Part shown: positions 22,622 through 44,943 of the stretch, in pieces
Numbering within the stretch: position 1 is the stretch's first letter
Layout of the letters: each line of letters opens with the position of its first letter
Source of the DNA: an uncultured Bacillota bacterium
GTDB lineage: Bacteria > Bacillota_I > Bacilli_A > RFN20 > CAG-826
DNA length: 64,000 nt
Assembly: GCA_949299565.1 (NCBI GenBank)
Contig: OX437086.1
Location: 880,099-944,098 of the forward strand
Direction: 5' to 3'
Position numbers and translations under genes: made by a program
Notes under the pieces: model-generated
Databases searched by the model: none
What the model was told of the DNA's origin: nothing
The model's input: the letters and a program-made list of their open reading frames with translations, nothing else

Positions 22622-24307
22622 CTATTTAAGGGGTTTCTCGTACAAGGCAAACGTCGTGAGGTTTTTCTCTTTTAAATCTGTGGGATCATAATTTTTGCCG
22701 TTTTCTTGATAAATGTGGAGTCGATAATGCTTTGCCGCTTCTTCATTACAAATCGCGACTAAAATTGTTGAAGAATCAACATTCATCGATGAAACGATTT
22801 TCGCGGCTTCTGAGGTTGAATTGATTTCCTTTTTTAAGCGTTTCTCCAAGAAAATAGAACATTGTTTAAAAGCTTCGTTTTTCGATAAATAAAGCGTCTC
22901 CTTATCATAGATCATATTTCTATCAAGTTCGCGGTTGCTCGCTAAAACGTATCGAATCGGCTTAACGAGTTGCTCGACTTCCTTAAAAGATGAGAATTCG
23001 TTTTTCGGCTCTAAGTCTTCGTTATTGTTGCTGATTGGCACTAAAGCAAGATCTAGATAGCCGTTTTCCAAATATTTTCGTTCAGTCATGAAATCATCGA
23101 AATAGATTTTCTTGTAATCAGAATATTTAGAGGCAAGTTCTGTCCGAAAGGCCATATCTGTATTCGAATAAGGGTATCCGAAAATGCCAATTATTTTTTG
23201 TCCGGGTTTTCTGATCGAATAGAAGGAAGAAGAATAGTCTAGTAATTTTGCATCTTTCTCGCTGATCCGATAAAAACGGACGCGACCGCTCAATTTAGTG
23301 CCTCTTGAGAAGAACCAGCCATCCATCGTCGTAATCCCGTTTTTCCCGATCTGGCCAATGAATTGACAGTTCCCTTCAGCCCGATCACCGGAATTGTTTG
23401 AAACATTCGAGGAATAATGATAGAAGCCCTTCCCGACCATGTCATGCTCGTCAATCCCGAAAACAAAGGAATCCGCCGAGAAGAAAAGAATATCTTCTCC
23501 AACGAAATGACATTTCATCGAGAGCTGTTTCTTTTTATAAGAAATATCGACAATCCTAAGCCTTAAACCTTTCGGAACATAAGCAAGGCCGTCCTTCCGT
23601 TCTTCAAAAGAATAATAAATCCACTTCCCCGTAATCAACGAGTTGCGGTTATCTTCATCAAAGCCCGTCATCCCCAGCACGAGGTTTAAAACAACAACTA
23701 AGACCGTTCCTACCGCGGAATATATTTCTTCATTGGCCTCCGGCAAAAATTTAAAAAACGAGGAAAGGAATAAAAGAATCGTCAAAGTGATCGAAATTAA
23801 GGCAGAAACCAAACGCACGATGAAAGAGACCGTCACATGCGAACCGAAATAATTTTTGATGCGCATGATCAAAGAACGTCGATAATCATTCAATTTAAAT
23901 AGACGAAACTCGAGCATTTCAAAATCTTCATCATCCTCGTCGTATAAAAAGCTCAAGGCTTCCTCGTTATTCTCTTTCGAGAGAGCGTAATTTGAATAAC
24001 GCGAATTCACGAAACGGCTAAGCTTATCGATTTTTGCAACGAATAAGCCGATTTCGATGATTTGATCGATATTTAAACGGCTGATTAAAGAGAGGAAATC
24101 ATAATTTGGATGATTATCGATGGTTCGCGACGGAAGAAGCAAAAAATCAATCTCGCGTTTTTTTAAGCGCGCGACCATTTCTGATAAAGAAGCACATAAC
24201 ACAAGTTCAACTTCCTGCCCCTCAAAAAGTTTATGATTCATGAGGTTTGAAAGTAACACTTCTTTTTGAAGGGTTTCCGGTGTCTTTAAATATCCGACTT
24301 TCAGCAT
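22622..24307 (-). CDS. Membrane protein built from prephenate-dehydratase (PDT)-like domains, no ACT domain
   Basis: N-terminal about 100 aa resemble the PDT N-subdomain (VGYLKTPETL...ELVLCASLSEMVARLKKREIDFLLLP); two hydrophobic helices in the middle; C-terminal about 250 aa resemble a full PDT domain (IGIFGYPYSNTDMAF...LDLALVPISN...STSEAAKIVSS...NLTTFAL) with TTF where TRF is expected. Confidence 0.65.
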   Translation of the reverse strand: MLKVGYLKTPETLQKEVLLSNLMNHKLFEGQEVELVLCASLSEMVARLKKREIDFLLLPSRTIDNHPNYDFLSLISRLNIDQIIEIGLFVAKIDKLSRFVNSRYSNYALSKENNEEALSFLYDEDDEDFEMLEFRLFKLNDYRRSLIMRIKNYFGSHVTVSFIVRLVSALISITLTILLFLSSFFKFLPEANEEIYSAVGTVLVVVLNLVLGMTGFDEDNRNSLITGKWIYYSFEERKDGLAYVPKGLRLRIVDISYKKKQLSMKCHFVGEDILFFSADSFVFGIDEHDMVGKGFYHYSSNVSNNSGDRAEGNCQFIGQIGKNGITTMDGWFFSRGTKLSGRVRFYRISEKDAKLLDYSSSFYSIRKPGQKIIGIFGYPYSNTDMAFRTELASKYSDYKKIYFDDFMTERKYLENGYLDLALVPISNNNEDLEPKNEFSSFKEVEQLVKPIRYVLASNRELDRNMIYDKETLYLSKNEAFKQCSIFLEKRLKKEINSTSEAAKIVSSMNVDSSTILVAICNEEAAKHYRLHIYQENGKNYDPTDLKEKNLTTFALYEKPLK

Positions 24308-24339: not shown

Positions 24340-25008
24340 TTATCTTTTAAGGGTCAGGCGATAACTATTATCGATATAAGAATATATTTCTTCGTTCTTC
24401 ACCGTCCCGTTTAAGAGAACTGTAAACCAGTTCTTTTTATTCATGTGATAGGCTGGGAAATAATTATGATAGTCAAGTAAAGAAGATAAGCGTTCTGGTT
24501 CAATCCGTAAATCTAAAATCTCTAGGTTCTCTTCACCTAAAAGACCGATTTTCTTCTCTTTTACAGTTAATAACGCCGCGTACCACGTCTTTGTGTCCTT
24601 TCGCCTAAAAATTGCATTATTCGGGAACTTCTTCCAAAGATATTCCGGTTCATCGCCATATGTTCTTTTTATGTATTCAATTACGAGTTTTGTTTGTTCG
24701 CCTTTAAAGATTTCAGTCGCACAACAATTATTTATAAAGTTCTCGATTGCTGCGTTATAAGCTTCTCTGATTGAACCGATAAATTCTCCGATTGCTTTAG
24801 AGATTAAATGAAGAACATATTCTTCATTCGTGGCTTTTTCGCTTATCCTTACCCATAATTCATCTCCCTTTAAAACATAAAGTTCAAGAAGAAAACGGCC
24901 CCCTAATATCTCGCTTTTATAGGAATAGACGTTATCTAAATAACTAAAACCAAATGGTATAAGTCTCTCAGTGATTATCTTTTTGTTTATTAAGGGAATT
25001 TGCTTCAT
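24340..25008 (-). CDS. MmcQ/YjbR-family putative DNA-binding protein with N-terminal extension
   Basis: C-terminal half (WYAALLTV...LDLRIEP...PAYHMNKKNWFTV) matches my recollection of MmcQ/YjbR motifs. Confidence 0.6.
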   Translation of the reverse strand: MKQIPLINKKIITERLIPFGFSYLDNVYSYKSEILGGRFLLELYVLKGDELWVRISEKATNEEYVLHLISKAIGEFIGSIREAYNAAIENFINNCCATEIFKGEQTKLVIEYIKRTYGDEPEYLWKKFPNNAIFRRKDTKTWYAALLTVKEKKIGLLGEENLEILDLRIEPERLSSLLDYHNYFPAYHMNKKNWFTVLLNGTVKNEEIYSYIDNSYRLTLKR

Positions 25009-25452
25009 GTTTCTTTATCTTAAACATTAAGCCATAAGAGTTCCTTAATCATCAAAGAAAAAACATTTTGTGCGACTACTTTGTTATTATTCTGAGTTAT
25101 TACACAACAAGATTTAAAAAATGTCGAAAAGAAAAAAGAACTTTAATGCTATAAAAAATTTTTCCATTTTATTTCTCCTAACTCTTTCAATTTTTCAAAA
25201 GCGTTTGCATCTATTATTGTGTCTAACCACGGTCCGTTCCCTCCTTCGTCAAAAATGCCGTTGGTACGAAGGCTATCTAATTAAAGATGGCTGAGAGAAA
25301 TCTTCTATAAGCAATGATTTAGTTCTCAACAAGCATTATTAGTCGAATGCTTTTATTTATGCTTTTTCTTTTTTCATAAAAGTTAAACAACAACTCGATG
25401 TATTGAGCTTTTTAAAGATGACTAATTTTTTGATGAAACTTATTCGCGGTCG

Positions 25453-26247
25453 TCAAATATTGCTGATAATGTTAAATAATAAAACGAAAATCAAAACAAG
25501 AAACACTATGAGGCCAAATAAATAACCCATGGAATATGCTATATCGTTTTTCTTATTATTTTTATAACTCGTTTTTTTGCGTACTATTTTTTTATTTTTG
25601 GGAGATATACTGTTTTTTACAGTACCTTGCGTTTTATTGATATTTTTATGTTCAGACAAACGTTCCCAATGCCGCGCAGGGACGCATTTTTTTAAAGCAT
25701 TATACGCTTCTAGATGTTCATCAACTATTTTTCGACAAGCTATTTGATACCTATTAAAACTGGCCATTGGAATGGTTCCATCATAAAGAGAATCAATATC
25801 ATTAATGATCAAGTCGACGCCATTGTTATACATTCCTGTCTCATATTCTATCTTTAAATGTAAAATAAGATGCTCTAAAAGATTGCAGTAGGTTAAAACG
25901 TCAGGTTGGTGAAAGCTAATATATAACGATGAATAAGGTTTATTTGGACCAACATACAAATTCTCTTGCTTAGATAGTTGCGGGTATTTATTTTCAAGAT
26001 CATGATGAATTGAAAGTCCTTCTAACCCGCGCTTAATCGATTTGTTTTGTTTGAATGTATAATTTTTATCAACAATAAAATAAGAACCACTAACTTTCCC
26101 ATATTTGGTTTTAAGAGCTCTTAAGCATTGCTTATAGTTCAAATCACAATATAAATGCTGGAGAAATCTTTCATCTTTTTGAATTTTTTGATATTCAGCT
26201 TCCCCCAAACTTGAGTTTGCTGATTTAGATTCATTGGTTGATTCCAT
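25453..26247 (-). CDS. Hypothetical tail-anchored membrane protein (island gene)
   Basis: 264 aa; soluble N-terminal domain, Lys-rich linker and a single C-terminal TM helix; AT-rich codon usage like neighbouring island genes. Confidence 0.5.
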   Translation of the reverse strand: MESTNESKSANSSLGEAEYQKIQKDERFLQHLYCDLNYKQCLRALKTKYGKVSGSYFIVDKNYTFKQNKSIKRGLEGLSIHHDLENKYPQLSKQENLYVGPNKPYSSLYISFHQPDVLTYCNLLEHLILHLKIEYETGMYNNGVDLIINDIDSLYDGTIPMASFNRYQIACRKIVDEHLEAYNALKKCVPARHWERLSEHKNINKTQGTVKNSISPKNKKIVRKKTSYKNNKKNDIAYSMGYLFGLIVFLVLIFVLLFNIISNI

Positions 26248-26577
26248 ACTTAAATTATATGCTTAAGTTTTGCACAATAGCTTTTATTAAGAATTACTAT
26301 AAAACCAACTTTATAATATGCAACTAAAGATGCACTGCCATTAATTTCACCATAAAAATTATGACGAATATCAATTCAGAAAACGCAAAATGATTGATAT
26401 CGCTATTGCAGATGATGATAAAGTAGTCGTTCTTTTGTGTTTTTATATGTCTATGACTCAAAATATAGAAAAATTTTAGCTAAGAAAATAATAACAAAAA
26501 CTTTCATTGCCTTGTCACTGAAACTAATATCACCATATTTTTTAGGGAGTAGCACGCGTACAAATATGACGTAAATT

Positions 26578-28440
26578 TTACCTAATTTTTAGCATTTTCT
26601 TTATATGTTCATTCAAAGCTTTATCTTCGCAAAATATATAGCATCCTTTTTGCCCACGCGTTAATAGGGTGCGATAAGTGTTTTTGATGATAATATCGCA
26701 ATCTTTTTCGTGAAGCGGGTTATTCTTGTAGCCCTTTAGTGATTTGTCAGTTTTAGCTCTTGCATCTTTGTTTGTTAAAACATTACCGTGCCTATAGATT
26801 AGGTCTTTTCCAATAATCACACCAACGTGATCAAATTCAAGCCCCTGACACGTGTGAATGCAGCCTATTTGATCAAAAGAGTCCTTATCTATTGCCCAAG
26901 TCTTGGTGTTTGAAAAGTTCCACTGAGCTTTAAAATCGCTCCCTATTTGAATATCAAATTTTGTCAAATCATCACGACTTATCCAATCATAACAATAACC
27001 CGCAACAATTCTAGACTTATTGTTTATCTCGTTTTTCTTTCTCAGCTCTTCCCTCATTGCAGAAGGGCTATCGAAGACCTTTATATCATATTCCTTTCGG
27101 TCGAAACTAACATTCGCTGTAGGCCTAATTTCTAGCAAATTATCTAAAAAAGCTAAGTATGCGTCACTACCATTACATCTAAACTGAGATGTTAGCGTCA
27201 ACTCTTTTCCAAAATAGGCTTTTGAATCTAAAATTTTAGCCCATTTTTTAATTTCGTCTATTGAACCGATATCGCTGGAAGTAATTCTTTGATCCTCGTC
27301 AATAAAAAAGACGCTAACCTTCGCTGCGTTAATTATTTCTTTTATTTGGTTTTCGCCTTTGCCGTTAAAAATAGATTTTTTGTTCAAACGATGAGCTTCA
27401 TCGGCAATGATACAATCGAATTCGTTTTTAGTGGAGTCAACAAAAACACCACTGCCTTTAAATAAATTTTTAATATACGCTTTTTTAAAATCTCCACCTG
27501 CGAGTTTTTTATAATAAACTTCTCGTGGTGCACTATTCTTAGAAGTGTAGATAGCATTAAAACCATCGCGAATTAAACTCGACAGCATCTTGATTGCAAT
27601 CACAGATTTTCCAGTGCCAGGACCGCCTTGAACGATAATGGTATGTTTAGTGTCGGTTTTTAGACTCTCATTAATCGTTTTCAAAATAGTTTCATATGCT
27701 ACCTTTTGCTCATCCAATAGTTTAAAAGAATCATTTCCTTTAATTAACCTTTCGATTTCATCTTGTAAAGCAGTTGATGGTCTAATTTTTCCATTTTCAA
27801 TTTCGTATAAAATTTTTCCATCATCAGGATTAACAACATACTTCTTTATAAAATCAGCCAGTTTTTTTCGATCCCTTTGTAGAAAAAGCGGAGCCTCTTT
27901 TATTATAGTTCGATAGCGCTCATCTTCGATTTTATATCGATTTGATTCATTGAAATTATGAAGAAAGGCGCAAGGAATCATTCGAATATTCTTTTTTTGA
28001 ATAGATTCGTTAAAATTCTCGATAGTTTTCGCATAACTATATGCTTGATATGATGGGTGTGCCTCTTCTCTATATGCTCTTGCGACATAGGTTATTACTA
28101 TATCCTTCTTGTCGCTTAGTTCTATATCTTCCCATTGCTTAAGTTCTATGATGACTGCGTTGCTTTTGCCGTGATCGTCTCTACCTGTGATTATAAAATC
28201 AATTCTTTTCGATGTTAGAGGAATTTGAAGTTCTATTGCGACGTTTAAATTTCTATTTATTCCAAAAGATTCATCAAAAACTCCATCAATCTGCGGCAAC
28301 GAGTTCTCAAAGGCACGATGTTCCCTTGGATTATTATGCGTGAGTCCTTGCTTGCGAAACCCATCCTCGATTCGATCAGCAATGACGCCATTTATAATGT
28401 CTTCATGAAATTTGCTTACGATGCTAGAGTAGATTATCAT
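26578..28440 (-). CDS. PD-(D/E)xK nuclease-like N-terminal domain fused to a DUF2075/SF1-helicase-like P-loop ATPase
   Basis: N-terminal IDFIITG ... AVIIELKQW (D ... E-x-K); Walker A VQGGPGTGKSV; Walker B/DEAH-like CIIADEAHRL; motifs SQFRCNG and CQGLEFDHVGVIIG; start ATG overlaps the MazG-like stop (ATGA). Confidence 0.8.
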   Translation of the reverse strand: MIIYSSIVSKFHEDIINGVIADRIEDGFRKQGLTHNNPREHRAFENSLPQIDGVFDESFGINRNLNVAIELQIPLTSKRIDFIITGRDDHGKSNAVIIELKQWEDIELSDKKDIVITYVARAYREEAHPSYQAYSYAKTIENFNESIQKKNIRMIPCAFLHNFNESNRYKIEDERYRTIIKEAPLFLQRDRKKLADFIKKYVVNPDDGKILYEIENGKIRPSTALQDEIERLIKGNDSFKLLDEQKVAYETILKTINESLKTDTKHTIIVQGGPGTGKSVIAIKMLSSLIRDGFNAIYTSKNSAPREVYYKKLAGGDFKKAYIKNLFKGSGVFVDSTKNEFDCIIADEAHRLNKKSIFNGKGENQIKEIINAAKVSVFFIDEDQRITSSDIGSIDEIKKWAKILDSKAYFGKELTLTSQFRCNGSDAYLAFLDNLLEIRPTANVSFDRKEYDIKVFDSPSAMREELRKKNEINNKSRIVAGYCYDWISRDDLTKFDIQIGSDFKAQWNFSNTKTWAIDKDSFDQIGCIHTCQGLEFDHVGVIIGKDLIYRHGNVLTNKDARAKTDKSLKGYKNNPLHEKDCDIIIKNTYRTLLTRGQKGCYIFCEDKALNEHIKKMLKIR

Positions 28441-28763
28441 AACTTATCATATTTAAGAGATTTTGATTTGCATTTTTCAATAGGATATTTTCTTTTCGTT
28501 TTTTCAAGTTTATCTAAAACAATTTTATTGATATCAAGATTCAAGACTTGCGCCATTTGAATACAATAATTAATTACATCGGCAAGCTCGTCTTTTACAT
28601 CATTTGAGTTGAAGTTTTTCTCATCCCATTGAAAACACTCAAGAAGTTCGTTGGCTTCAATGGAAATAGATTTAGCTAAATTAGCGGGTGTATGAAATTT
28701 GTTCCAATCTCTCTCGTCAACGAATTTTTTAATTTCCGCTTGCAATAAATCTAGTTTATCCAT
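28437..28763 (-). CDS. MazG-like nucleoside-triphosphate pyrophosphohydrolase (small all-alpha type)
   Basis: 108 aa with the EExxE-type metal-binding segment (SIEANELLECFQWDE, DELADV); translationally coupled to the nuclease-helicase gene. Confidence 0.75.
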   Translation of the reverse strand: MDKLDLLQAEIKKFVDERDWNKFHTPANLAKSISIEANELLECFQWDEKNFNSNDVKDELADVINYCIQMAQVLNLDINKIVLDKLEKTKRKYPIEKCKSKSLKYDKL

Positions 28764-28858
28764 GATTTTATTTTATCATTGTTAAAGATTAAAAAACTAA
28801 AGAAATGTTCGGCACTGCTTTTCAGTATCGGAGTATCAAAATAACCACTTCAATATTG

Positions 28859-28879
28859 CTTAACTTTTTAAAAGTTAAG
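28859..28879 (-). promoter_or_regulatory. 21-bp near-perfect palindrome upstream of the MazG-like/nuclease-helicase operon (candidate operator)
   Basis: CTTAAC-TTTTTAAAA-GTTAAG, about 100 nt upstream of the MazG-like start; AT-rich, so not a convincing terminator. Confidence 0.3.
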
Positions 28880-29088
28880 AAGCTACATGGTACTAGAATC
28901 GCCTCACATTCTTGTCTGAATCATTTGCATAGCCGTAACATCTGCCGTCGAAATGCTCAAATTGTTCCAAATCATGAGTAACCTCAATACCCTCTAGCAA
29001 AGAAGGCAACAAACCAAAGCAAACAACCCTGTTGCAATAAGTTTGGCAGCTAACAACAAAAAACTCAGTCCTATAACTCAGTAATCGA

Positions 29089-29769
29089 TTATTCAACCAT
29101 AAGAGTTCCAATGAATTGACCAACATTTGACCCTAGTTCTTCTTTAAGATCATATAAATCTTCACAAAATTCTTGTTCATTCTTGATTGCAATTTTAATT
29201 TTGTCTTTATAAATTGCGAAGTCCAAATTGCGCTTATTGTGATGGAAAAAATTTTCAACCTGTAATTCTAAGTATCTTTTAGAATTCTCTTTACAATTTT
29301 CAAGCATCTTTTTCCTATCTAAATTGAAAATTTTATCGTCATGCATTAACAAAAATAATTCAAATGTCGGATTTGAAATACAAAGCTTGTATCCTTTTTC
29401 ACAACATAATTTTAAATAAGTATCATATTGCTCCGATTTAAAATTCTGAGGATCACGATCAAAAACGAATACTGCAATATCAACATCCTTATCATAATTA
29501 ATTTTGCCTTCTTTTACTGAGTCCTCAAAATTATTGATTTTACGTTTTAAATGACTTTGACCAACTTCGTCTTCCTCGTTTTCAATAATAGTAAGCTTTA
29601 TAAGTTTGTTTAGATGAAGACATTCGCTATTGTTTTTTAAGCCTTCAAAATATCTTATTTCAGTTACATCGCCCTCCGAAACAATAAAACAGAATTTATT
29701 AAACTCTCTATTATTTCTTTTTCTATCATAATTACTTTTGCTGCCAAGTTCTCTCATCAAACACCTCAT
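29089..29769 (-). CDS. RloB-like protein (AbiLii-like partner of the upstream ATPase)
   Basis: Motifs CFIVSEGDVTEIRYF and CISNPTFELFLLMH match my recollection of the RloB family; start overlaps the ATPase stop (TAATG). Confidence 0.7.
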   Translation of the reverse strand: MRCLMRELGSKSNYDRKRNNREFNKFCFIVSEGDVTEIRYFEGLKNNSECLHLNKLIKLTIIENEEDEVGQSHLKRKINNFEDSVKEGKINYDKDVDIAVFVFDRDPQNFKSEQYDTYLKLCCEKGYKLCISNPTFELFLLMHDDKIFNLDRKKMLENCKENSKRYLELQVENFFHHNKRNLDFAIYKDKIKIAIKNEQEFCEDLYDLKEELGSNVGQFIGTLMVE

Positions 29770-31112
29770 TAAGCGAAGTAATTATTAAAATTAGGAATTC
29801 CACCATATCGTCCATCTAGATAGGCCTTATCAACTTTTTTATCAAATCTTTCGCCAAATTCTTCAAGCGAATATACTGTGGTTGGTCCATTATTTTTTCT
29901 TTCACAAAACCAAATCTCATCCCTTCTCAAAAGATCCAAATCCAATAAACGAGTTTCATGTGTAGTTACAACTAATTGAGAATTTGATGTTTTAGAAAAG
30001 AAAGACTTAATAAATTCGAAAGAAAGATCTGGATGAAAACATCTATTAAGTTCATCAATAAAATAAACTTTCTCAGAATGATCATCCATTAAAACTTGAA
30101 TCAAATCAAATAACCTTTGAGTACCATCGCTCTCTTCATCAAATTCATATAACCCGTCGTCATTTCTGTGCTGAAAAGTTATTTTCTTTAGTTGATAAGA
30201 GTTATCTTTTTTGCCGAGAAAGTAAATATTGTTATTGAGCCTTATATTAACTTGCGGATTGGTCTTTTTATTCTTAGAAGCATTAAACTGTTCAAATTGA
30301 TTGAGTAAATCATTAAATATAACAGGAGGCAATTTATTTTGAAGTTCTTCAAGTGGACAATCGACCAATTTGCATTCTGATATACCAGTTCCAAACTTTG
30401 AAATTAAAGCATTTATCTCATTAATTTTCTGGTTAGAAATGAAAAATTTAGAGTTGTCTAAAGACATATTTGGGAAAATAACAACCAACGAATTAGAAAA
30501 CCAATTAAATATTTTTTTAAAAATCATTACACTATTATTTGCGTTTTCTTCATATAAAGTGTCCTTGTTGGTATTCATCAATGTTAAAAACAAAATATTG
30601 TCCTGATTTTTAATATCAGAGTAATAAATATTAAGCCTATTTAAAATATCTTCTTCAAAATAATTTTTGCTTAACTTTATTCCGCCATTTGTGACTCTTT
30701 TAAAAATCAAAATATCTTTCTCATCAGGACCAAGTTCATACAGCCATTCGGCCTTAATGCTATTTTTAGAGAGTAATATATCAAAACCATAGGTATATAT
30801 CTTATTATCAATTTCAAACTCAAAATCAAAAGTAGAAATTTTATCTTTATTCTCTTTTTTTCCTCTGTAATAACAACTCGACCAATTAATTCTAATGCCT
30901 TCTAAAACTACTCTTTTGAAAAAGGCAACAGCCTTAATTAAATTTGATTTCCCAGAAGCGTTTGCTCCGTATAATTCAGCAAATTTAAGTATTTTCAATT
31001 TGCCCTTATTAACACAATGATCAACTTTCTTTTTAGGAGCTCCAGCCACCATCGATATTGTTTGCTTTGAGTCAAATGATAAAAAATTCGATATGGTATA
31101 GCTAATTAGCAT
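29769..31112 (-). CDS. AAA/ABC-type ATPase (AbiLi-like, AAA_21-type)
   Basis: Walker A GANASGKSN near N-terminus; split-ATPase C-terminal motifs DEESDGTQR, Walker B VYFIDELNRCFHP, TTHE; RBS AGAGGAGG upstream. Confidence 0.8.
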   Translation of the reverse strand: MLISYTISNFLSFDSKQTISMVAGAPKKKVDHCVNKGKLKILKFAELYGANASGKSNLIKAVAFFKRVVLEGIRINWSSCYYRGKKENKDKISTFDFEFEIDNKIYTYGFDILLSKNSIKAEWLYELGPDEKDILIFKRVTNGGIKLSKNYFEEDILNRLNIYYSDIKNQDNILFLTLMNTNKDTLYEENANNSVMIFKKIFNWFSNSLVVIFPNMSLDNSKFFISNQKINEINALISKFGTGISECKLVDCPLEELQNKLPPVIFNDLLNQFEQFNASKNKKTNPQVNIRLNNNIYFLGKKDNSYQLKKITFQHRNDDGLYEFDEESDGTQRLFDLIQVLMDDHSEKVYFIDELNRCFHPDLSFEFIKSFFSKTSNSQLVVTTHETRLLDLDLLRRDEIWFCERKNNGPTTVYSLEEFGERFDKKVDKAYLDGRYGGIPNFNNYFA

Positions 31113-31134
31113 GGCTTACCTCCTCTTTGGTTAG

Positions 31135-31227
31135 ATTATAAGTGAAATTATCACTTGCAACAATCTTATTGAGTAATAAATTAACCTTATTTTGAAAATA
31201 TTTTATAAATTAAGGTGAAATTTTCAC
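31135..31227 (-). promoter_or_regulatory. Promoter of the AbiL-like operon with two palindromic operator-like sites
   Basis: Minus-strand reads GTGAAAATTTCAC (31215-31227, perfect 6-bp arms) ... TTGCAA-GTGATAATTTCAC (31142-31154)-T-TATAAT (31135-31140), then RBS and ATG at 31112; the second palindrome lies between the -35-like and -10 hexamers. Confidence 0.4.
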
Positions 31228-31302
31228 ATTGATTTAAAAGTATCGCCATGTTTTTTATTCTAAATAAGGTATTAAGACAATCAATTAAACCGCCACTGTA
31301 TT

Positions 31303-31328
31303 AAATAAAACAGCACCATTAAGTGCTG
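31303..31328 (-). terminator. Candidate Rho-independent terminator after gene 31426..32202
   Basis: Minus-strand hairpin CAGCAC-ttaatg-GTGCTG followed by TTTTATTT; stem is only 6 bp. Confidence 0.35.
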
Positions 31329-31425
31329 AAATTTGAGAATGTCTTTGTGTTATCGATTTAATACAAAACGATACCCCCTGTTAGAAAAATGACACCATTA
31401 TAAAGTGTTTATTTTGTTTGGCTTT

Positions 31426-32202
31426 TTACTTTCTCCTTCTCTTTCTTGTCGTTTTTTTCGATTTTTCTAAGCCTAATTTCCAAAGCCCCATATCCAAAAG
31501 TTTCATTTGTGGATATTCAATTGATGGGAGGTCTTTTAAAGTTAAAGTTTCCATCTTTTTTCTAATCTTTTTTTTATTTTTTGAATAGAAATCGACTAGC
31601 GCTTCGAATGAATTTTTACCGAATCTTTGAACTAATTCTTTTTCTCCGCATTCCTCTTTTCCAAATTTTAGTGCTCCTTTTAGCATCTCATCGTAAGCAG
31701 GAACGCATCCTAATGTTCCTAAGAGAATCTTCGTAACTAGAATGTCCGAAATAGCTTGATTAGTTGACTCGTCTTCGTTCCTAGCTTCTCTTCTAAAACG
31801 CTCATATTCTTTCTTAATTGAATTTATTAGTCCTTCATTACCTTCACTACCGAAGAGTAGATCTAAATTTGAAGAGTAGTTCTTATCACCTTTGTCCCAG
31901 CAATAGCCAATTAAAGGTTTATATTTATCATTGAGAATTAATTTGACGGTTTGAAGATGAACTTTGTAATCAAATTGCAACAGAAAAGATGATCCACGGT
32001 ACATTCCCCATGATGCAAGATAAAAAGCAAGGTGCAATGACAAATTCAAGTAATCATCTTCATTTAATTCGTTCAATTTATCGAATGCTTCATGAAATTT
32101 ACCATAACAATATTCCCAAGACAAATATCTAGAATTTGCATTGCTATCTATCTCTCTCTTAAACTTATTAAAAGATTTAATAAATTCATTAATAAATTTC
32201 AT
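31426..32202 (-). CDS. Hypothetical protein (island gene, basic C-terminal tail)
   Basis: 258 aa ORF with AT-rich codon usage; no family recognised; ends in a Lys/Arg-rich tail. Confidence 0.5.
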   Translation of the reverse strand: MKFINEFIKSFNKFKREIDSNANSRYLSWEYCYGKFHEAFDKLNELNEDDYLNLSLHLAFYLASWGMYRGSSFLLQFDYKVHLQTVKLILNDKYKPLIGYCWDKGDKNYSSNLDLLFGSEGNEGLINSIKKEYERFRREARNEDESTNQAISDILVTKILLGTLGCVPAYDEMLKGALKFGKEECGEKELVQRFGKNSFEALVDFYSKNKKKIRKKMETLTLKDLPSIEYPQMKLLDMGLWKLGLEKSKKTTRKRRRK

Positions 32203-32324
32203 ATCTATGCCTCCCTATATTTTTCAAAGAATTTATCTTCACCTGCTCTTCTAGCTTTAATAACATCTATTTTATATTTGAATCTGCCGAGCAAATGTGA
32301 TCTGTGTTGAAATATAATTTGAGC

Positions 32325-32650
32325 TACCTATAGTCTTCGCTCCCTATCGTAATGAACGCCTGTGATGTCTGATGTGTTGCTTTTTTGGAATTTCCAATAG
32401 TTCTTTTGTTTTTCTTATAGGCAAAGCTAACCACTGTCAGTCTACCGAATTTTTGACCAATCAAGTCCCTCACCATGAAACGACTTCAACCGCTAAATTT
32501 GACCTGGCCAGTATGGAGCATGTTGACATTGAATTCTACCTCTTTTTCACAAACGCAACGTCATTTATAAATCTTTGTGGAATGATGCTTCTTCCCAGTA
32601 TCTTCGATCACAGTCAGATAGACATAGCGTTTCCCAATTTCAATATTCAT
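32325..32650 (-). pseudogene. Decayed gene fragments sharing an N-terminal G-x-K/R-F/Y-G-R-L-T-V motif
   Basis: Minus-strand short ORFs MNIEIGKRYVYLTVIEDTGKK (stops after 29 aa, with a Cys-containing continuation in another frame) and MVRDLIGQKFGRLTVVSFAYKK (50 aa, 32325..32477); GC content differs from flanks. Confidence 0.3.
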
Positions 32651-32765
32651 TTGCTTTGTAACCAATCAATAAATTTATAAACAAAATTGAAACCAAAAAA
32701 ACGAAAATAAAAGGATGGTTGTCGCCCACCACCCCAATTCAATCAAAGGAGGTTCTCATAGAACC

Positions 32766-33755
32766 TTAATCTTGTCTACTTACCTCCTTATCCAGGTTTT
32801 TAGCTAGCTTTGTGAAGATATAGCTATATTTCACATAGGTCTTTCCACCAAAGTCTTTGTTGTTTGTCGTTCTAATGCCATAAGGATTGAAGTTAAAGTC
32901 CTGCTCTTCCAAATCATCCTTGGCATCAGTGTTTTCGACAACGAGTTCACTGATATAAAGATTATTGGTTGGATGACCAAAATAGGAATTGATATCCCTC
33001 AAATTGACGTTTTGATAGTACTCATCAGCGGTTTTGCTATATGCAACATTGAAATAGATATCAAATGCATAAAGATAACCCATCGGCACAAAGTAATGCG
33101 ACAGATAAGTGTTGATGAGTAGACACTTATCAAGCAAATCCTGAATCAGTGACTTCAATCCGACATCGTAGCTTCTAATGACAACAAGATGGCTTTGAGC
33201 ACTAGAAGGCATGAACATTGAATAACCACTCTCCTTGGAGAAGACATTAACGTTTTCCGTGTCGAAGACCTCTCTTATGAAGTCGAATATTGCACTGGTC
33301 TTGACGAGCCTTAAATCAATAAGAATCTCACCACAGAACTTCTGCTTCTTCGATGCCTTCACGAACTGATTGAAAAGCCTGACTCCATATGCAGAATCAA
33401 AAAGTGTAGGCTGATTCACTTTATCGCTACCATTGGTTTGGTTGACGATTTCATAGTGGTTTTCAACTTTCACGACCTTGAATGATTGGCCGTTTGCGTT
33501 AAAGCAGATCTTATCGGCTTTTTCATCGTTGGTCAGAATATGGCAACAAACCAAGTTGTAATCCGCTGTTTTTCCTCCTTTTGACTGAGGATAGATGTGG
33601 TCGAGGTTCCATCCGTATTCGCTGTTGCGATTATCGTAGGCGGACTTAGCCATCGTCCTTCCAGCGAAATCCACAGCCCTGGTCTGCTTCCCGTACCTTG
33701 ACGTCCACAAACGCATTGCAGTTTCTCTGTTAACAATCATTTTTTCATTTTTCAT
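32766..33755 (-). CDS. HNH-nuclease-domain protein with unassigned C-terminal domain
   Basis: N-terminal GWNLDHIYPQSKGGKTADYNLVCCHILTN fits the HNH signature (D-H-x-x-P, N-L, Cys pair); the C-terminal about 230 aa has no motif I recognise. Confidence 0.65.
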   Translation of the reverse strand: MKNEKMIVNRETAMRLWTSRYGKQTRAVDFAGRTMAKSAYDNRNSEYGWNLDHIYPQSKGGKTADYNLVCCHILTNDEKADKICFNANGQSFKVVKVENHYEIVNQTNGSDKVNQPTLFDSAYGVRLFNQFVKASKKQKFCGEILIDLRLVKTSAIFDFIREVFDTENVNVFSKESGYSMFMPSSAQSHLVVIRSYDVGLKSLIQDLLDKCLLINTYLSHYFVPMGYLYAFDIYFNVAYSKTADEYYQNVNLRDINSYFGHPTNNLYISELVVENTDAKDDLEEQDFNFNPYGIRTTNNKDFGGKTYVKYSYIFTKLAKNLDKEVSRQD

Positions 33756-34445
33756 AATTTAATCTTTCAACAAGAAAAAAACTATGAGGTTGACCTCCTT
33801 TCATAAGGAGACGAATGCAATGATTGACTATAGGGCGACCTACTGCTGATACCTCGAAGGGTAGTTCTCTTAACAGCTTTGACAGAAAACTTTATCAATC
33901 AGCTCTAACTAAAGAGCTGTTAGATTCGTTCCTTACGTACTAATTATAACCGATGGAAACTATTAAAAAACGAAAATCTTGTGAATGCAAAAAAATGATA
34001 ACATTAGTCAAATTATTGCAATCAGCGCATAAAGTGTGAACTCTTAAATCTTTTTGATAAAACTTTTAGTCTATTTTGACTTTCTCATTGTTAAACCACG
34101 ACTTCGGAGGAAAATGCTCAAAAGATAAAGTTTTTTTCTAAACAAATATGACAAGTCCCAAAATGATTATTCTTTATTGTTTTCATACTAATATTTTAGC
34201 GTCATAAACTATGCAACCTAATCGTTTCTCTACTAGGCGTATCACATTTTCCTAGGGTATCTTTTTCTAGTAGCCTTAGCGTTCATCTAGTAGAGTTCTA
34301 TTTTGCTAGTAGCCTTAAACCACCTTTCGATTCCTTGGAGGTTTCGAACTTTAACTAGGAAAACTACTTAAAAAAATGCCCGATTTCTCGGACAAATATC
34401 GTTAATTTTGACACCCTTACTTTGTATCAAAATTTAGTTATAAGA

Positions 34446-34519
34446 TGGCAGGGGCTGAAGGAATCGAACCCTCATCAAAGGTTTTGGAGACCTCTGTTCT
34501 ACCATTGAACCAAGCCCCT
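34446..34519 (-). tRNA. tRNA-Trp (anticodon CCA)
   Basis: 74-nt cloverleaf folded by hand: acceptor AGGGGCT/AGCCCCT, D-stem GTTC/GAAC, anticodon stem GAGGT/ACCTT with loop CTCCAAA, T-arm GAGGG-TTCGATT-CCTTC, discriminator G and encoded CCA. Confidence 0.9.
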
Positions 34520-41446: not shown

Positions 41447-42030
41447 TATTTCTTAAACTGCTCGTCAATAAAGTGTTTATCATATTTATCCCAATATTTC
41501 TTATAGACGAAGTTATCGTCACAGCTTATGTTTAACTGATGCATTTTAAAAGTAACGAGAATATGTTTAGGTTTCCACATTTCATCATAAGAATATTGAT
41601 ATTTAAAACCTATTCTCTGCATGGTAGACCCGCTTCTTTGATTTCTCACATCATGAGTCGCGGTCAAATATGGAAGATGTTCCATTTTTGCTAATTCAAG
41701 CATCATCGCCCCGGCTTCGCTTGTAATCCCTTGATGCCAATATTTCTTCTCTAAGGCATAACCTAAATCATAACTATCGTCATCTTCAATCTTAATGTAG
41801 CCGACTGGACGATTATCTTCTTTTAAACAAATTGCAAAACAATACTTTTTGTTCTTTAAGCGTTGCTCATAAAAATGACTCGCTTCTTGCTTATTTTTTA
41901 AAGGGAACCACGGCAAAAATTCATTCACTTCTAAATCGGAAAATATCGTATAGATTGCTTCGAGATCTTCTTTCTCAAACCTTCGAAGAATTAGGCGTTT
42001 TGTCTCTAATTTATTTGGAAATGTCATCAA
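41443..42030 (-). CDS. GNAT-family N-acetyltransferase
   Basis: 195 aa; GNAT core motif region GYALEKKYWHQGITSEAGAMMLELA. Confidence 0.8.
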   Translation of the reverse strand: MMTFPNKLETKRLILRRFEKEDLEAIYTIFSDLEVNEFLPWFPLKNKQEASHFYEQRLKNKKYCFAICLKEDNRPVGYIKIEDDDSYDLGYALEKKYWHQGITSEAGAMMLELAKMEHLPYLTATHDVRNQRSGSTMQRIGFKYQYSYDEMWKPKHILVTFKMHQLNISCDDNFVYKKYWDKYDKHFIDEQFKKY

Positions 42031-42039
42031 TTAAGATTA

Positions 42040-42471
42040 TTAAAGTTCTCTCTTTTTATAAAGAATGATTTCCGGTTTATCGCCATTACAGCCGTATTCG
42101 CATATCAATATGTGATTGACGCTACAGGCGACGCCATAACATCTTTCGTTATTCTTTCTTTCAACTTGATTCCCTAAATAAACGTCGTTGTCGTTTAACA
42201 ATTTAATTTTCTTCCCGTTTTCTAGTTGATATTCAAGGTTTATATATGAACCCGAAAGAAGATTTAGATCATTTAGAAACAATCCATCTATGTTCAAGTC
42301 ATTAATTTCTCTGATCAATTGTTCTTTCAGTTGAAGAAAGCCTTCTGTCCCTTTTTCTTTAATTGTGTCCGCAGCTATGCATTTACCTCTATTGCATCTT
42401 TTTAAGCAACCGCCGCATTGATCAAATTTTTCACATTCTTGGCAGTCGAATTGTTTACACAGCGATTCCAT
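42040..42471 (-). CDS. Cys-rich small protein (possibly DUF3795-like)
   Basis: N-terminal cluster CKQFDCQECEKFDQCGGCLKRC plus C-terminal Cys residues; AT-rich accessory block. Confidence 0.45.
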   Translation of the reverse strand: MESLCKQFDCQECEKFDQCGGCLKRCNRGKCIAADTIKEKGTEGFLQLKEQLIREINDLNIDGLFLNDLNLLSGSYINLEYQLENGKKIKLLNDNDVYLGNQVERKNNERCYGVACSVNHILICEYGCNGDKPEIILYKKREL

Positions 42472-42479
42472 CTTTTTCC

Positions 42480-43097
42480 TTAAATTTCTTTCCAGTCGAT
42501 GCCTGACATATATTGACTATTAACTGGTTTATAAAATGAACCCTCAATTATTTTGAAATGGCATTCTTGAAAAACGAATTTGGTGAAAAATGTATAGATG
42601 CAATTTTCGCGATGCTTACGTGTTCCTACCGTCATTAAAGAATAGAAAAGGACGCCCGCTTCGACTTTGCAATCATCTAAATAATATCGATCTTCCTTTG
42701 TTGAAAAATCTAGCGCCTGTCTTGGATATCCTTTAATTAGTTCAATTTCTTGTCCACGGAGATATGGCGAATTATATTCAAGGAAATGCGCGCTTTTGAT
42801 CCTATTTTGTGCTTCTAATTTCTTCTTATATTCTTCCTCGGCTTTCCTTAATTCCTCCGCAATTCGCGCGTCTTTTTCTTCGATTACCTTTGGATCAATG
42901 ACTACAATCTCATCATTTAAAAAACTAATGGTAGGTAAATCTACTTCATCGTTTTCATAAGCATAATACCTGAACGCGTGAACGATATTTTGATTATAAT
43001 CAACGCTTTTTATCTTCAAAATTCTCAGTTCAGGATCGTCTTCATCGTCATTCTTTAAACTGAAGAATTTAATTCCTTCAAGATCTTTAAGCACCAT
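42480..43097 (-). CDS. Hypothetical protein
   Basis: 205 aa ORF, AT-rich; no family recognised. Confidence 0.45.
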   Translation of the reverse strand: MVLKDLEGIKFFSLKNDDEDDPELRILKIKSVDYNQNIVHAFRYYAYENDEVDLPTISFLNDEIVVIDPKVIEEKDARIAEELRKAEEEYKKKLEAQNRIKSAHFLEYNSPYLRGQEIELIKGYPRQALDFSTKEDRYYLDDCKVEAGVLFYSLMTVGTRKHRENCIYTFFTKFVFQECHFKIIEGSFYKPVNSQYMSGIDWKEI

Positions 43098-43205
43098 AGA
43101 ATGTCAAAATTATATCATCAACTTCCATGATTCGCCTAAATCAAGAAAATAGATGTCATGGAAAAAGATGATTCTAATCATCATAAATAATCCTCCTTGA
43201 TTAAA

Positions 43206-43664
43206 TTATCTTCTTATTAGTTTTATAGCGATGCCTACAATATTTTCACCAAGAAAATACACGTAAGCGTTATCTAAAAATCTCAAGCATTTGTTACCGT
43301 CAAGTTCGCCGATTCCTAGAATTTCTTTTTCCTGATCATAAAATATTCTCTGATTCTTTAAAGGCATAAAGCAGCCTTCATCATTTAGTTCGTTACCTAC
43401 TTCAGTTAATTTTAATTCCCCTTCATAAATAGACGGGGGATTGAAACGAAAACTGGGAGTTCGTTTTTCTGATTCATGCGGAAAATAGCCTTCTATCGAT
43501 ACGACTGTTTTTGTCCTTTTATCTACGTTCAACAAAAAAGTTGAACTGTCATTGAGAGAAATTTGAAAGTTTTCTAGAGAGTTCAAAGGACCAAAGGACC
43601 CATCTTCAAACCAATAGACAGGACAACAATCTTGATGGTCTTGAATTTTATAACTTAATTTCAT
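43206..43664 (-). CDS. Hypothetical protein
   Basis: 152 aa ORF, AT-rich; no family recognised. Confidence 0.45.
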   Translation of the reverse strand: MKLSYKIQDHQDCCPVYWFEDGSFGPLNSLENFQISLNDSSTFLLNVDKRTKTVVSIEGYFPHESEKRTPSFRFNPPSIYEGELKLTEVGNELNDEGCFMPLKNQRIFYDQEKEILGIGELDGNKCLRFLDNAYVYFLGENIVGIAIKLIRR

Positions 43665-44618: not shown

Positions 44619-44865
44619 TACCTCTTGCCTCTTTAACATTTTATTTTATAAAACTCTAAAAATCACGGCAAAATGCACCTTTTTGTAGAGAAGTGATTTA
44701 ATTTAATTTTAGAGATTTCAAAATATTCAAAATATTTGACCTGCATTTTTTGTGCATATTCATTGTTTGGTGTCCTAAAGATAAAAAATTGCATTTCCGA
44801 GTCTTTTGCCATCCTTCAATATAAAAAACCTATAATGTCGAAACATTATAGGTGTTCTTCTAATT

Positions 44866-44942: not shown

Positions 44943-44943
44943 T

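What the first reader, a model, noticed from the sequence alone, without database searches (positions are those of the whole stretch)
25009..34445. AT-rich island next to tRNA-Trp carrying several defence-like modules
Sampled 60-nt stretches in this block are about 25-33% GC against about 45% in one sampled stretch of the flanking lipoprotein block. It ends within about 130 bp of the 3' end of tRNA-Trp, a typical insertion hotspot. Its genes are a tail-anchored hypothetical, a MazG-like plus nuclease-helicase pair, an AbiL-like ATPase/RloB pair, an orphan hypothetical, gene fragments and an HNH protein. There are long non-coding gaps (about 330, 310, 560 and 690 bp) and no integrase, which suggests an old, partly decayed island. 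This is the best place in the window to look for an undescribed system.
Basis: partly seen in the sequence, partly recalled or inferred. Interest (0 to 1): 0.75.

Follow-up and report, generated by a model that had tools for sequence, protein, structure and literature searches.

The report
Defence hotspot with RNA-gated HNH nuclease
The AT-rich block beside tRNA-Trp is a defence-gene hotspot whose contents differ between strains, and one of its cassettes is undescribed: an HNH nuclease gene always preceded by a conserved structured RNA, on an mRNA whose two ends base-pair around the coding region.

Summary
Window 25159-34445 has 32.6% GC against 40.6% for the rest. It starts at the 3' end of tRNA-Trp and has no integrase. 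Contigs from the same species keep both flanks at 99-100% identity but carry other defence cargo, so this is a live hotspot, not a decaying island.

Two modules are known kinds: AbiL (AbiLi/AbiLii) and a Nhi-like nuclease-DUF2075 helicase, here with an optional MazG-like partner. A 258-aa "orphan" belongs to a large unannotated family with a weak DNA-glycosylase-like fold.

The new item is a roughly 1.3-kb cassette at 32702-33948 (minus strand). It comprises a promoter, a 125-140-nt structured RNA (Rfam Staphylococcus-1, function unknown), an HNH protein with a palm-like C-terminal domain, and a terminator. All 75 homologous loci with enough upstream sequence carry the RNA.

The leader pairs with the 3' UTR over about 22 bp. 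An RNA hairpin is complementary to the terminator loop. Both pairings show compensatory changes.

My best reading is a toxic nuclease whose mRNA is locked by fold-back, as in hok or aapA1, and carried by defence islands and mobile elements. An RNA-protein complex is not excluded. No experiment backs any function.

The parts
25159..34445 (.). Strain-variable defence hotspot between the yjbR promoter region and the 3' end of tRNA-Trp
   Evidence: L001 matches the window at 44921->34445 and 25158->23052 (99%) but has 7.8 kb of different cargo in between. GC is 0.326 against 0.406.
34446..34519 (-). tRNA-Trp (CCA), the conserved right border
   Evidence: ARAGORN; Rfam tRNA 67.8 bits.
33943..33948 (-). 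Conserved -10 box (TATAAT) of the RNA-HNH cassette; the transcription start would be near 33937
   Evidence: TGnTATAAT, and in many loci TTGACA 17 nt upstream, aligns 7-10 nt before the RNA 5' end in 61 leaders. The window sequence was read.
33801..33939 (-). Structured 5' RNA domain (Rfam RF03112 Staphylococcus-1-like)
   Evidence: Rfam 81.5 bits, E 2.5e-16, full length 1-127, gathering score 87.7. Own model R1 gives 102.9 bits. 17 of 32 predicted pairs show compensatory changes.
33770..33805 (-). Leader strand containing AGGAGG, which pairs with the 3' UTR
   Evidence: RNAduplex for the window copy gives -22.9 kcal/mol. Cognate versus non-cognate test.
32766..33755 (-). 329-aa HNH nuclease with a palm/ferredoxin-like C-terminal domain
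32741..32768 (-). 3' UTR strand (CCUCCU and flanks, starting at the stop codon), complementary to the leader
32712..32735 (-). Terminator hairpin followed by a T-run (to about 32702). Its loop GGGCGACA is complementary to hairpin P4 (GGUCGCC) of the 5' RNA.
   Evidence: Terminator scan. Covarying classes of P4 and loop sequence.
32324..32665 (-). Two tandem degraded gene fragments (IGxxFGxLTV...CxCxCG type) with in-frame stops
31426..32202 (-). 258-aa all-helical protein of a large unannotated family, with its own terminator at 31328-31311
29769..31112 (-). AbiLi (AAA_21 ATPase)
   Evidence: PADLOC AbiLi 3.9e-78; Pfam AAA_21 2.8e-26.
29089..29769 (-). AbiLii (RloB)
   Evidence: Pfam RloB 2.9e-25; PADLOC AbiLii 2.9e-15.
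28437..28763 (-). MazG-like pyrophosphohydrolase, overlapping the DUF2075 start by 4 nt
   Evidence: PF12643 8e-16. The same arrangement occurs in L173 (78% identity) but not in L174-L178.
26578..28440 (-). Nhi-like nuclease plus SLFN-g3/DUF2075 helicase
   Evidence: PF09848 2.3e-102; PADLOC PDC-S41, AbiO and Nhi partial hits. In L003 the first ~200 aa are replaced by an HNH_2 head, with the breakpoint near window 27827.
25453..26247 (-). 264-aa SAV1803-related protein with a C-terminal membrane anchor
   Evidence: NF053682 6.7e-22. It sits next to the DUF2075 gene in the window, L003 and L004 only.
24340..25008 (-). YjbR-family gene, the conserved left flank (not part of the island)
   Evidence: PF04237 6.1e-15. 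Present in all strain variants.

Best explanation
Window 25159-34445 is a recombination hotspot for defence genes between tRNA-Trp and yjbR. It holds at least four independent units.

(1) MazG-like protein plus a Nhi-like PD-(D/E)xK-DUF2075 nuclease-helicase, next to an SAV1803-like membrane protein.
(2) AbiL (AbiLi/AbiLii).
(3) A stand-alone 258-aa protein with a weak glycosylase-like fold.
(4) An undescribed self-contained cassette of about 1.3 kb: sigma-70-type promoter, structured 5' RNA (Staphylococcus-1 motif), leader, HNH nuclease with a palm-like C-terminal domain, 3' UTR and terminator.

Proposed mechanism for unit 4. The HNH protein is a toxic DNA nuclease and its own mRNA keeps it silent. 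The full-length transcript closes into a panhandle: the AGGAGG-containing leader pairs over about 22 bp with the sequence that starts at the stop codon. Hairpin P4 of the 5' RNA domain also pairs with the loop of the terminator hairpin. In most homologues a local hairpin additionally buries the start codon.

Translation would then need the fold-back to be undone. That could happen through 3' trimming or RNase cleavage, or through whatever the conserved 5' domain senses. Candidate triggers are phage infection or loss of the carrying element. This is the logic of type I toxin mRNAs such as hok and aapA1.

Shown here: the obligate RNA-protein linkage, the cassette borders, the covarying helices, the intact HNH catalytic residues and the genomic context. 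Inferred: toxicity, translational gating, the trigger and any defence or addiction role.
For: Hotspot: conserved flanks with alternative defence cargo in same-species contigs; low GC; AbiL and Nhi-like HMM hits.

RNA-protein linkage: all 75 metagenome loci with about 200 nt or more of upstream sequence carry the RNA 40-90 nt before the gene. A covariance-model search of 1.18 Mb found exactly one hit per HNH locus, always upstream and on the same strand. That includes Mycoplasmopsis cynos, at 36% protein identity. It found none in about 45 unrelated loci.

RNA structure: 17 of 32 predicted pairs show compensatory changes and 38 positions are invariant. A conserved TTGACA/TGnTATAAT promoter sits just before the RNA.

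Cassette borders: related copies in unrelated contexts share homology from 6-60 nt before the RNA to 61-77 nt after the stop codon.

Leader-3' UTR helix: cognate duplexes average -24.8 kcal/mol against -18.3 for non-cognate pairs. In 5000 permutations the mean was -18.4, sd 0.5, best -20.2. There are 81 G-U pairs against 11 A-C mismatches, which favours pairing at the RNA level on the sense strand.

P4-terminator loop: six covarying sequence classes, 35 of 42 cassettes with an exact complement (a seventh class, n=1, has no exact complement; 43 scored), plus G-U wobble variants.

Start-codon hairpin with compensatory variants.

HNH motif residues D52, H53, N67 and N76 are invariant.

Neighbours of the cassette are enriched for large serine recombinases, type I/II restriction-modification, Fic, AIPR and AAA_21.

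Type I toxin mRNAs with 5'-3' long-distance interactions are documented (PMC5416894, PMC6733600, PMC9841398; found, only their abstracts as listed there were seen; the mechanistic details I give for them come from my own knowledge).
Against: No experiment exists and toxicity is assumed. Type I toxins are small membrane peptides controlled by an antisense RNA; here the protein has 329 aa and I did not find or rigorously test for an antisense gene.

A 125-nt domain with 38 invariant positions is far more elaborate than fold-back inhibition needs. That points to an extra function such as ligand or protein binding.

The conserved AGGAGG lies about 30 nt from the first ATG, too far for an ordinary Shine-Dalgarno site, so the translational logic is unclear.

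Local leader folding is only modestly better than shuffled sequence (mean z -1.2). The window copy lacks an obvious start-codon hairpin and has a terminator-like hairpin in the leader instead.

Relatedness of the sequences inflates covariation statistics. The helices could in principle be DNA-level inverted repeats. The defence context is guilt by association.
Confidence: 0.45

Rival explanations
1. RNA-protein complex. The 5' RNA, possibly released from the mRNA by RNase III cleavage of the 22-bp leader/3' UTR helix and still held to the terminator fragment through the P4-loop contact, binds the palm/RRM-like C-terminal domain of the HNH protein. It would then act as antitoxin, activator, scaffold or guide. 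This would be analogous to type III toxin-antitoxin systems or to the RNA partners of Cas9/IscB.
For: Strict one-to-one linkage to a single protein family down to 36% identity. The RNA core is invariant while the proteins diverge to 45% identity. The C-terminal domain has a ferredoxin/palm fold, common among RNA-binding modules. The HNH domain is of the Cas9/HNH_4 type. Rfam files the motif as an sRNA gene. A long perfect helix is a plausible RNase III site.
Against: No variable guide-like segment was seen; variation is confined to paired stems and a peripheral hairpin. There is no RuvC, PLMP or other IscB/Cas9 domain. The RNA is at the 5' end of the same transcript, with no separate terminator in most loci. 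Binding was not tested. The AF2 model of the HNH part is poor.
Confidence: 0.25
2. Riboswitch or sensor leader. The 5' domain is an aptamer for a small molecule, nucleotide signal or tRNA. The AGGAGG / CAUCUUUCC / start-codon segments form its expression platform, switching HNH translation on when the ligand appears.
For: Location in the 5' UTR at a fixed distance from the gene. A multi-stem junction with invariant internal loops. Mutually exclusive pairings around the start codon.
Against: Riboswitch classes normally control several gene families linked to one metabolite, whereas this RNA controls one nuclease family only. The covarying contacts with the 3' UTR and terminator loop are not a riboswitch feature. 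No ligand can be proposed.
Confidence: 0.12
3. Selfish mobile cassette. The HNH protein is a homing-type endonuclease that spreads its own 1.3-kb unit, and the inverted complementary segments act in mobility at the DNA or RNA level.
For: Discrete cassette borders in many unrelated contexts. Two copies in M. cynos. Degraded HNH-associated gene fragments lie next to it in the window. Free-standing HNH homing endonucleases are well known (my own knowledge).
Against: Its own promoter and terminator and the absence of any intron model hit argue against an intron. No target-site duplication or terminal repeats were seen at the borders. The excess of G-U over A-C favours RNA pairing, not DNA repeats. 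It is rare in viral contigs: 6 loci.
Confidence: 0.1
4. The block is an ordinary, decaying genomic island with nothing new, and the long non-coding gaps are debris.
For: Gene fragments at 32324-32665; no integrase; low GC.
Against: All main ORFs are intact. Shared segments between strains are 100% identical, with cargo swapping. The gaps around the HNH gene hold RNA elements conserved across distant taxa.
Confidence: 0.05

Closest known systems
Type I toxin mRNAs with fold-back inhibition (hok/Sok fbi-tac; Helicobacter aapA1/IsoA1 5'-3' long-distance interaction)
   Same: A long-range pairing of the 5' leader (AGGAGG) with the 3' end of the same mRNA, plus a local hairpin over the start codon. 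This is the design that keeps those toxin mRNAs inert until processed (PMC5416894, PMC6733600, PMC9841398).
   Different: The product is a 329-aa HNH nuclease, not a membrane peptide under 60 aa. No antisense antitoxin RNA was identified. There is an additional 125-nt highly conserved structured domain and a covarying contact with the terminator loop.
Rfam RF03112 Staphylococcus-1 RNA (Weinberg et al. 2017, PMC5737381)
   Same: The window RNA aligns over the full model (1-127), E 2.5e-16, with the same stems.
   Different: At 81.5 bits it scores below the curated gathering score of 87.7. Rfam lists the motif as an sRNA of unknown function. The HNH linkage, leader, 3' UTR helix and terminator-loop contact were not in any text I could read; the paper's supplement was not available.
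Type III toxin-antitoxin systems (ToxIN) and AbiF with an upstream regulatory RNA (PMC12373285)
   Same: A non-coding RNA directly upstream of a toxic or defence protein gene in one transcription unit, found on mobile elements.
   Different: No tandem-repeat RNA; the protein is an HNH nuclease rather than an endoribonuclease of the ToxN/AbiF type; the 5'-3' panhandle is not a feature of those systems.
IscB/Cas9 with omega-RNA (HEARO) or tracrRNA
   Same: A Cas9-type (HNH_4) nuclease domain obligatorily linked to a structured RNA.
   Different: No RuvC or PLMP domain, no HEARO match in Rfam, no guide-like variable segment, no IS200/605 context.
AbiL (AbiLi/AbiLii) and Nhi / Nhi-like DUF2075 nuclease-helicases
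   Same: Window genes 29089-31112 and 26578-28440 match these by HMM and by domain order.
   Different: The DUF2075 gene has a translationally coupled MazG-like partner, which is facultative among relatives, and a neighbouring SAV1803-like membrane protein. A strain variant swaps the PD-(D/E)xK head for HNH_2.
Defence islands and variable hotspots at tRNA genes
   Same: Conserved flanks, strain-specific defence cargo, deviating GC.
   Different: No integrase or att repeats. Exchange seems to go through flank homology and even through breakpoints inside genes.

Membership tests
Strain-variable defence island / hotspot | Conserved flanks with different cargo in genomes of the same species | tested here: met
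   L001, L003 and L004 compared with the window.
Strain-variable defence island / hotspot | Cargo dominated by known defence genes | tested here: met
   AbiL and Nhi-like in the window. AbiEi, DpdB-like, methyltransferase/restriction fragment, PDC-S57, DrmD/DrmMI in the variants.
Classical integrase-borne genomic island | Integrase plus direct repeat of the tRNA 3' end at the far border | tested here: not met
   No recombinase domain; no such repeat.
AbiL | Adjacent AbiLi ATPase and AbiLii (RloB) genes | tested here: met
   PADLOC 3.9e-78 and 2.9e-15; the genes abut at 29769.
AbiL | Confers abortive infection or phage resistance | not testable with these tools
   Needs phage assays.
Nhi / Nhi-like | N-terminal nuclease fused to a DUF2075 (SLFN-g3) helicase | tested here: met
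   PF09848 2.3e-102. A D...ELK PD-(D/E)xK-like motif at aa 81-102 was read from the sequence. The PADLOC Nhi model gives only 5.9e-13, partial.
Rfam RF03112 Staphylococcus-1 RNA | Score at or above the curated gathering score (87.7 bits) | tested here: not met
   81.5 bits, but full-length with E 2.5e-16. I treat it as a divergent homologue.
Type I toxin-antitoxin (hok, aapA1 type) | 5'-3' long-distance pairing of the toxin mRNA that masks the ribosome-binding region | tested here: met
   Computational only: cognate-specific helix of about 22 bp that includes AGGAGG.
Type I toxin-antitoxin (hok, aapA1 type) | Small hydrophobic toxin peptide | tested here: not met
   329-aa soluble HNH protein.
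Type I toxin-antitoxin (hok, aapA1 type) | Cis-encoded antisense RNA antitoxin | not tested
   I only inspected the consensus by eye for antisense promoters; nothing convincing, no formal test.
Type III toxin-antitoxin (ToxIN type) | Tandem-repeat antitoxin RNA processed by an endoribonuclease toxin | tested here: not met
   A single-copy multi-stem RNA; the protein is an HNH nuclease.
IscB/IsrB/Cas9 RNA-guided nucleases | RuvC (and PLMP) domains plus omega/tracr RNA with a guide segment | tested here: not met
   Only an HNH hit in Pfam/NCBIfam; no HEARO hit; no variable guide-like region.
Group I/II intron with an HNH ORF | Intron ribozyme core interrupting a host gene | tested here: not met
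   No intron family hit even at E<=1; the cassette has its own promoter and terminator.
Riboswitch | 5' UTR aptamer with an expression platform | tested here: inconclusive
   The position and the alternative pairings fit; a ligand cannot be tested here.
Class III nucleotidyl cyclase / GGDEF palm domain (C-terminal domain of the HNH protein) | Palm fold with a catalytic metal-binding Asp pair | tested here: inconclusive
HhH-GPD DNA glycosylase (258-aa protein) | Helix-hairpin-helix plus catalytic Asp, and glycosylase activity | tested here: inconclusive

The most novel reading that the evidence does not exclude
The Staphylococcus-1 RNA and the HNH/palm protein form a new kind of ribonucleoprotein immune or addiction module. 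The mRNA's paired 5' and 3' ends are cut out to make a two-piece RNA, joined by the P4-terminator-loop contact, that binds the protein's palm-like domain. This RNA controls or directs its Cas9-type HNH nuclease. The module would be a compact RNA-dependent nuclease system unrelated to CRISPR, OMEGA or retrons and spread on a 1.3-kb cassette across Clostridia, Bacilli and Mollicutes.
Probability: 0.2. Interest if true: 0.9.

Novelty: new variant of a known kind. Interest (0 to 1): 0.7.

Why it matters
It gives an orphan Rfam motif a fixed genetic partner and a testable role, and it defines a widespread unannotated HNH protein family (more than 1000 members found). It also shows that fold-back control of toxin mRNAs, so far a hallmark of tiny type I peptide toxins, may extend to a full-size nuclease carried by defence islands and integrative elements. 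If the RNA turns out to be a cofactor rather than only a lock, this would be a new small RNA-dependent nuclease. Separately, the locus is a clean example of a defence hotspot without an integrase, where even the nuclease head of a Nhi-like gene is swapped between strains.

Tried and rejected
- The genome-contig scan with YjbR was meant to name the organism and give synteny. The best hit was only 52% identical, so it gave neither. The source species is an uncultured gut Firmicutes-like bacterium not represented there. Same-species metagenome contigs did the job instead.
- Literature searches for 'Staphylococcus-1 RNA', RF03112, HNH plus ncRNA defence, and DUF2075 plus MazG found nothing relevant. 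The supplement of Weinberg 2017 is not held.
- The VIPR preprint describes a RAMP-protein/tandem-repeat system and is unrelated.
- BLAST of the Rfam consensus against the plasmid and phage collections gave no match. tblastn of the HNH protein found only Mycoplasma chromosomes and partial HNH hits.
- The afdb50 fold library was unavailable. Foldseek against the PDB was not significant. Sequence profiles against the PDB found nothing for the HNH family or the 258-aa family.
- I tested MazG-like plus DUF2075 as an obligate two-gene system and rejected it. MazG is present beside one relative (L173) and absent beside two relatives examined in five loci (L174-L178). The 264-aa SAV1803-like protein is linked only within this species.
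- I considered the 258-aa protein as a partner of the HNH cassette. It is adjacent in only 2 of 80 loci, L119 and L099. It is therefore probably separate cargo.
- A small ORF in the RNA core (ATGAGGATTGCCCTTTGA) is not conserved in the window copy.
- I did not run the count of structure pairs on the long-range helices, because indels make the alignment unreliable. I used cognate versus non-cognate duplex energies instead.
Full report
**1. Observation**

Sliding-window composition shows a trough of 27.5-35% GC from about 24500 to 32500; most of the window has 39-44%. The segment later defined as variable, 25159-34445, has 32.6% GC against 40.6% for the rest.

tRNA-Trp lies at 34446-34519 on the minus strand, so the block abuts its 3' end. 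All substantial ORFs are on the minus strand.
- a 264-aa protein with an SAV1803-related domain and a C-terminal hydrophobic helix
- a 620-aa SLFN-g3/DUF2075 helicase (2.3e-102) with a PD-(D/E)xK-like N-terminus
- a MazG-like protein overlapping its start
- AbiLii/RloB and AbiLi (PADLOC 3.9e-78)
- a 258-aa protein with no hit
- a 329-aa protein with a weak HNH_4 / Cas9d-type HNH match at residues 50-84

No recombinase was found, and no repeat of the tRNA end marks the far border. The non-coding gaps are as stated.

**2. The block is a live hotspot**

Exact-protein look-ups with the flanking genes returned metagenome contigs of the same species.
- L001 matches the window at 99.4% from 44921 down to 34445, exactly the tRNA 3' end. 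It matches again from 25158 to 23052. Between these it carries 7.8 kb of other genes: AbiEi, a DpdB/DndB-like protein, a type II methyltransferase with a restriction-enzyme fragment, and PDC-S57.
- L003 is 100% identical to the window from 27827 leftwards. To the right it carries a DrmD/DpdE-like SNF2 helicase and a DrmMI/type IIG methyltransferase. The breakpoint is inside the DUF2075 gene, so that strain's protein has an HNH_2 head instead of the PD-(D/E)xK head.
- The alternative cargo of L001 is not AT-rich (38.3% GC).

This is therefore a hotspot exchanged through flank and intragenic homology, without an integrase. It is not an old decaying island. A scan of species-representative genomes gave at best 52% identity to YjbR, so the organism is an unrepresented uncultured gut bacterium.

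**3. Known modules**

AbiL is complete. The DUF2075 protein has the Nhi-like architecture (Millman et al. preprint, read).

The MazG-like gene is translationally coupled to it here and in one 65%-identical relative, where the ORF had not been called (L173). It is absent beside two 56-57% relatives examined in five loci (L174-L178). It is therefore a facultative partner. The SAV1803-like membrane protein is linked only within this species.

**4. The 258-aa 'orphan'**

It belongs to a family with 1845 cluster representatives at E<=1e-3. The family has no Pfam model; some members are fused to DUF7662 or DUF7669. The AlphaFold model is very confident (pLDDT 95.9) and all-helical.

**5. The RNA-HNH cassette: linkage**

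A permissive Rfam scan found a full-length match to RF03112, 'Staphylococcus-1 RNA', at 33808-33932 on the minus strand. It scores 81.5 bits against a gathering score of 87.7, with E 2.5e-16, and ends 52 nt before the HNH start codon.

The HNH protein has more than 1000 homologues of 300-330 aa, none of them named. D52, H53, N67 and N76 are invariant, as is a C-terminal LLDKCxLLNTY helix.

A metagenome scan returned 80 loci.
- All 75 with enough upstream sequence contain the RNA at a fixed distance.
- A covariance model built from 57 distinct copies found exactly one hit per HNH locus in 1.18 Mb, always upstream and on the same strand. That includes Mycoplasmopsis cynos at 36% protein identity. 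It found none in about 45 unrelated loci.
- RNAalifold gives 32 pairs, 17 with compensatory changes, around an invariant core.

**6. Anatomy of the transcription unit**

A canonical TTGACA-17-TGnTATAAT promoter ends 7-10 nt before the RNA in nearly all loci. In the window the -10 box is at 33948-33943. The RNA is therefore the 5' end of the HNH mRNA.

Related cassettes in unrelated surroundings share homology only from 6-60 nt before the RNA to 61-77 nt after the stop codon. The unit is thus a discrete cassette of about 1.3 kb.

After the RNA come three conserved elements:
- AGGAGG, about 30 nt before the first ATG, too far to be an ordinary Shine-Dalgarno site
- a (G)CAUCUUUCC arm
- the start codon followed by GGAAAGA

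In most leaders the minimum-energy fold buries the start codon in a hairpin. Compensatory variants occur, for example ATCATTTTC/GAAAATGAT and GGCTCTTTCC/GGGAAAGAGC. The folding energy is only modestly better than shuffles, with mean z of -1.2.

**7. Long-range pairing**

The sequence beginning at the stop codon is the reverse complement of the leader around AGGAGG. In the window, 32768-32741 pairs with 33805-33770 at -22.9 kcal/mol.

Over 60 distinct cassettes:
- cognate leader/3' UTR duplexes average -24.8 kcal/mol and about 22 bp, against -18.3 for non-cognate pairs
- 5000 random reassignments gave a mean of -18.4, sd 0.52, best -20.2
- the helices contain 81 G-U pairs but only 11 A-C single mismatches, which argues for selection on the sense-strand RNA rather than on DNA inverted repeats

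Further out, the terminator hairpin (window 32735-32712) has a conserved loop, GGGCGACA, complementary to hairpin P4 of the 5' RNA (GGUCGCC). Seven P4 sequence classes occur. In six of them (42 cassettes), 35 cassettes have the exact complement in the terminator region: GTCGCC 20/22, GTCACC 6/9, GCCACC 5/6, GCCGCC 2/2, GTTGCC 1/2, GTCGCT 1/1. Wobble variants add to these; the seventh class (GTCGTC, n=1) has no exact complement.

The whole mRNA is therefore predicted to close on itself, with the ORF as a loop of about 1 kb.

**8. The protein**

**9. Context**

No protein neighbour is conserved. Among 105 non-redundant neighbours from 49 loci there are large serine recombinases (7), HsdM (5-6), C5 methylases (3), Fic (3), Eco57I, ResIII, AAA_21, a HaeIII restriction enzyme, AIPR, a SLFN-g3 helicase and a Cas9 RuvC domain.

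Only six loci came from viral contigs, and none from the plasmid or phage collections at the DNA level. PADLOC has no model for the protein.

**10. Interpretation**

I favour a toxin-type nuclease whose mRNA is locked by fold-back. This is the principle known from hok and aapA1 (PMC9841398, PMC5416894, PMC6733600). The cassette would serve as a defence or addiction unit.

The elaborate invariant 5' domain is more than this model needs. That keeps an RNA-protein complex (antitoxin, activator or guide, perhaps after RNase III cleavage of the 22-bp helix) and a ligand-sensing leader as serious rivals. A selfish homing cassette is less likely.

Nothing here is experimental. I could not read the supplement of the paper that defined the motif, so I cannot exclude that the gene association was noted there.

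**11. Verdict**

The island as such is an ordinary, though clean, defence hotspot. Its HNH cassette is a well-supported, apparently undescribed RNA-protein unit with unusual mRNA architecture.

Noticed in passing
window 41500-44900, next to tRNA-Glu/tRNA-Asn at 44865-45017: A second AT-rich stretch (30-34% GC) with small ORFs beside two tRNA genes. Unlike the tRNA-Trp block, its genes (GrpB, three unknowns, an acetyltransferase) are the same in the other strain contigs L001 and L002.
   Followed up: partly
window about 27827, inside the DUF2075 gene 26578-28440: A recombination breakpoint inside the gene. Strain contig L003 is 100% identical to the window from 27827 leftwards (through the C-terminal ~415 codons of the gene and beyond). 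Its first ~200 residues form an HNH_2 nuclease head instead of the PD-(D/E)xK head, so the nuclease domain is swapped between strains.
   Followed up: partly
window 22622-24307 (-): A 561-aa protein with an odd architecture: an unknown N-terminal part, hydrophobic segments near residues 160-215, and a C-terminal prephenate-dehydratase-like (PDT) domain scoring well below the enzyme cut-offs.
   Followed up: no
window 33949-34445: About 500 bp between the HNH cassette promoter and tRNA-Trp remain unexplained. The stretch holds a 17-nt direct repeat 39 nt apart (34262-34278 and 34301-34317), the likely tRNA terminator (34394-34377) and a further promoter-like site (34040-34012). It has no match outside the window among the loci fetched; contig L002 reaches only its last 12 bp (34434-34445) before ending.
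   Followed up: partly
window 32324-32665 (-): Two tandem degraded copies of a gene starting IGxxFGxLTV...CxCxCG(K)...SCGC-like, with in-frame stops. This N-terminus is typical of phage HNH/zinc-ribbon proteins (from memory), and it sits just downstream of the HNH cassette.
   Followed up: partly
L173 3678-4001: A MazG-like ORF (78% identical to the window's) directly upstream of a DUF2075 gene was not called as a gene in the public record. Surveys based on gene calls would therefore undercount the MazG-DUF2075 pairing.
   Followed up: yes
L118 / L119 1693-4601: Two tandem large serine recombinases lie immediately upstream of the RNA-HNH cassette, and 17 of 81 loci have recombinase-like ORFs nearby. 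The cassette may often sit at the end of integrative elements.
   Followed up: partly
L166 (NZ_LR214986.1, Mycoplasmopsis cynos): A 987-kb record filed as 'plasmid 13' in the plasmid collection is evidently a chromosome. It holds two places matching the HNH protein.
   Followed up: no
window 28893-29126 (-): A 77-aa ORF in the gap between the MazG-like gene and AbiLii, overlapping the AbiLii 3' end, is called as a gene in contig L004. It has no homologue in any fetched locus and is probably spurious.
   Followed up: partly
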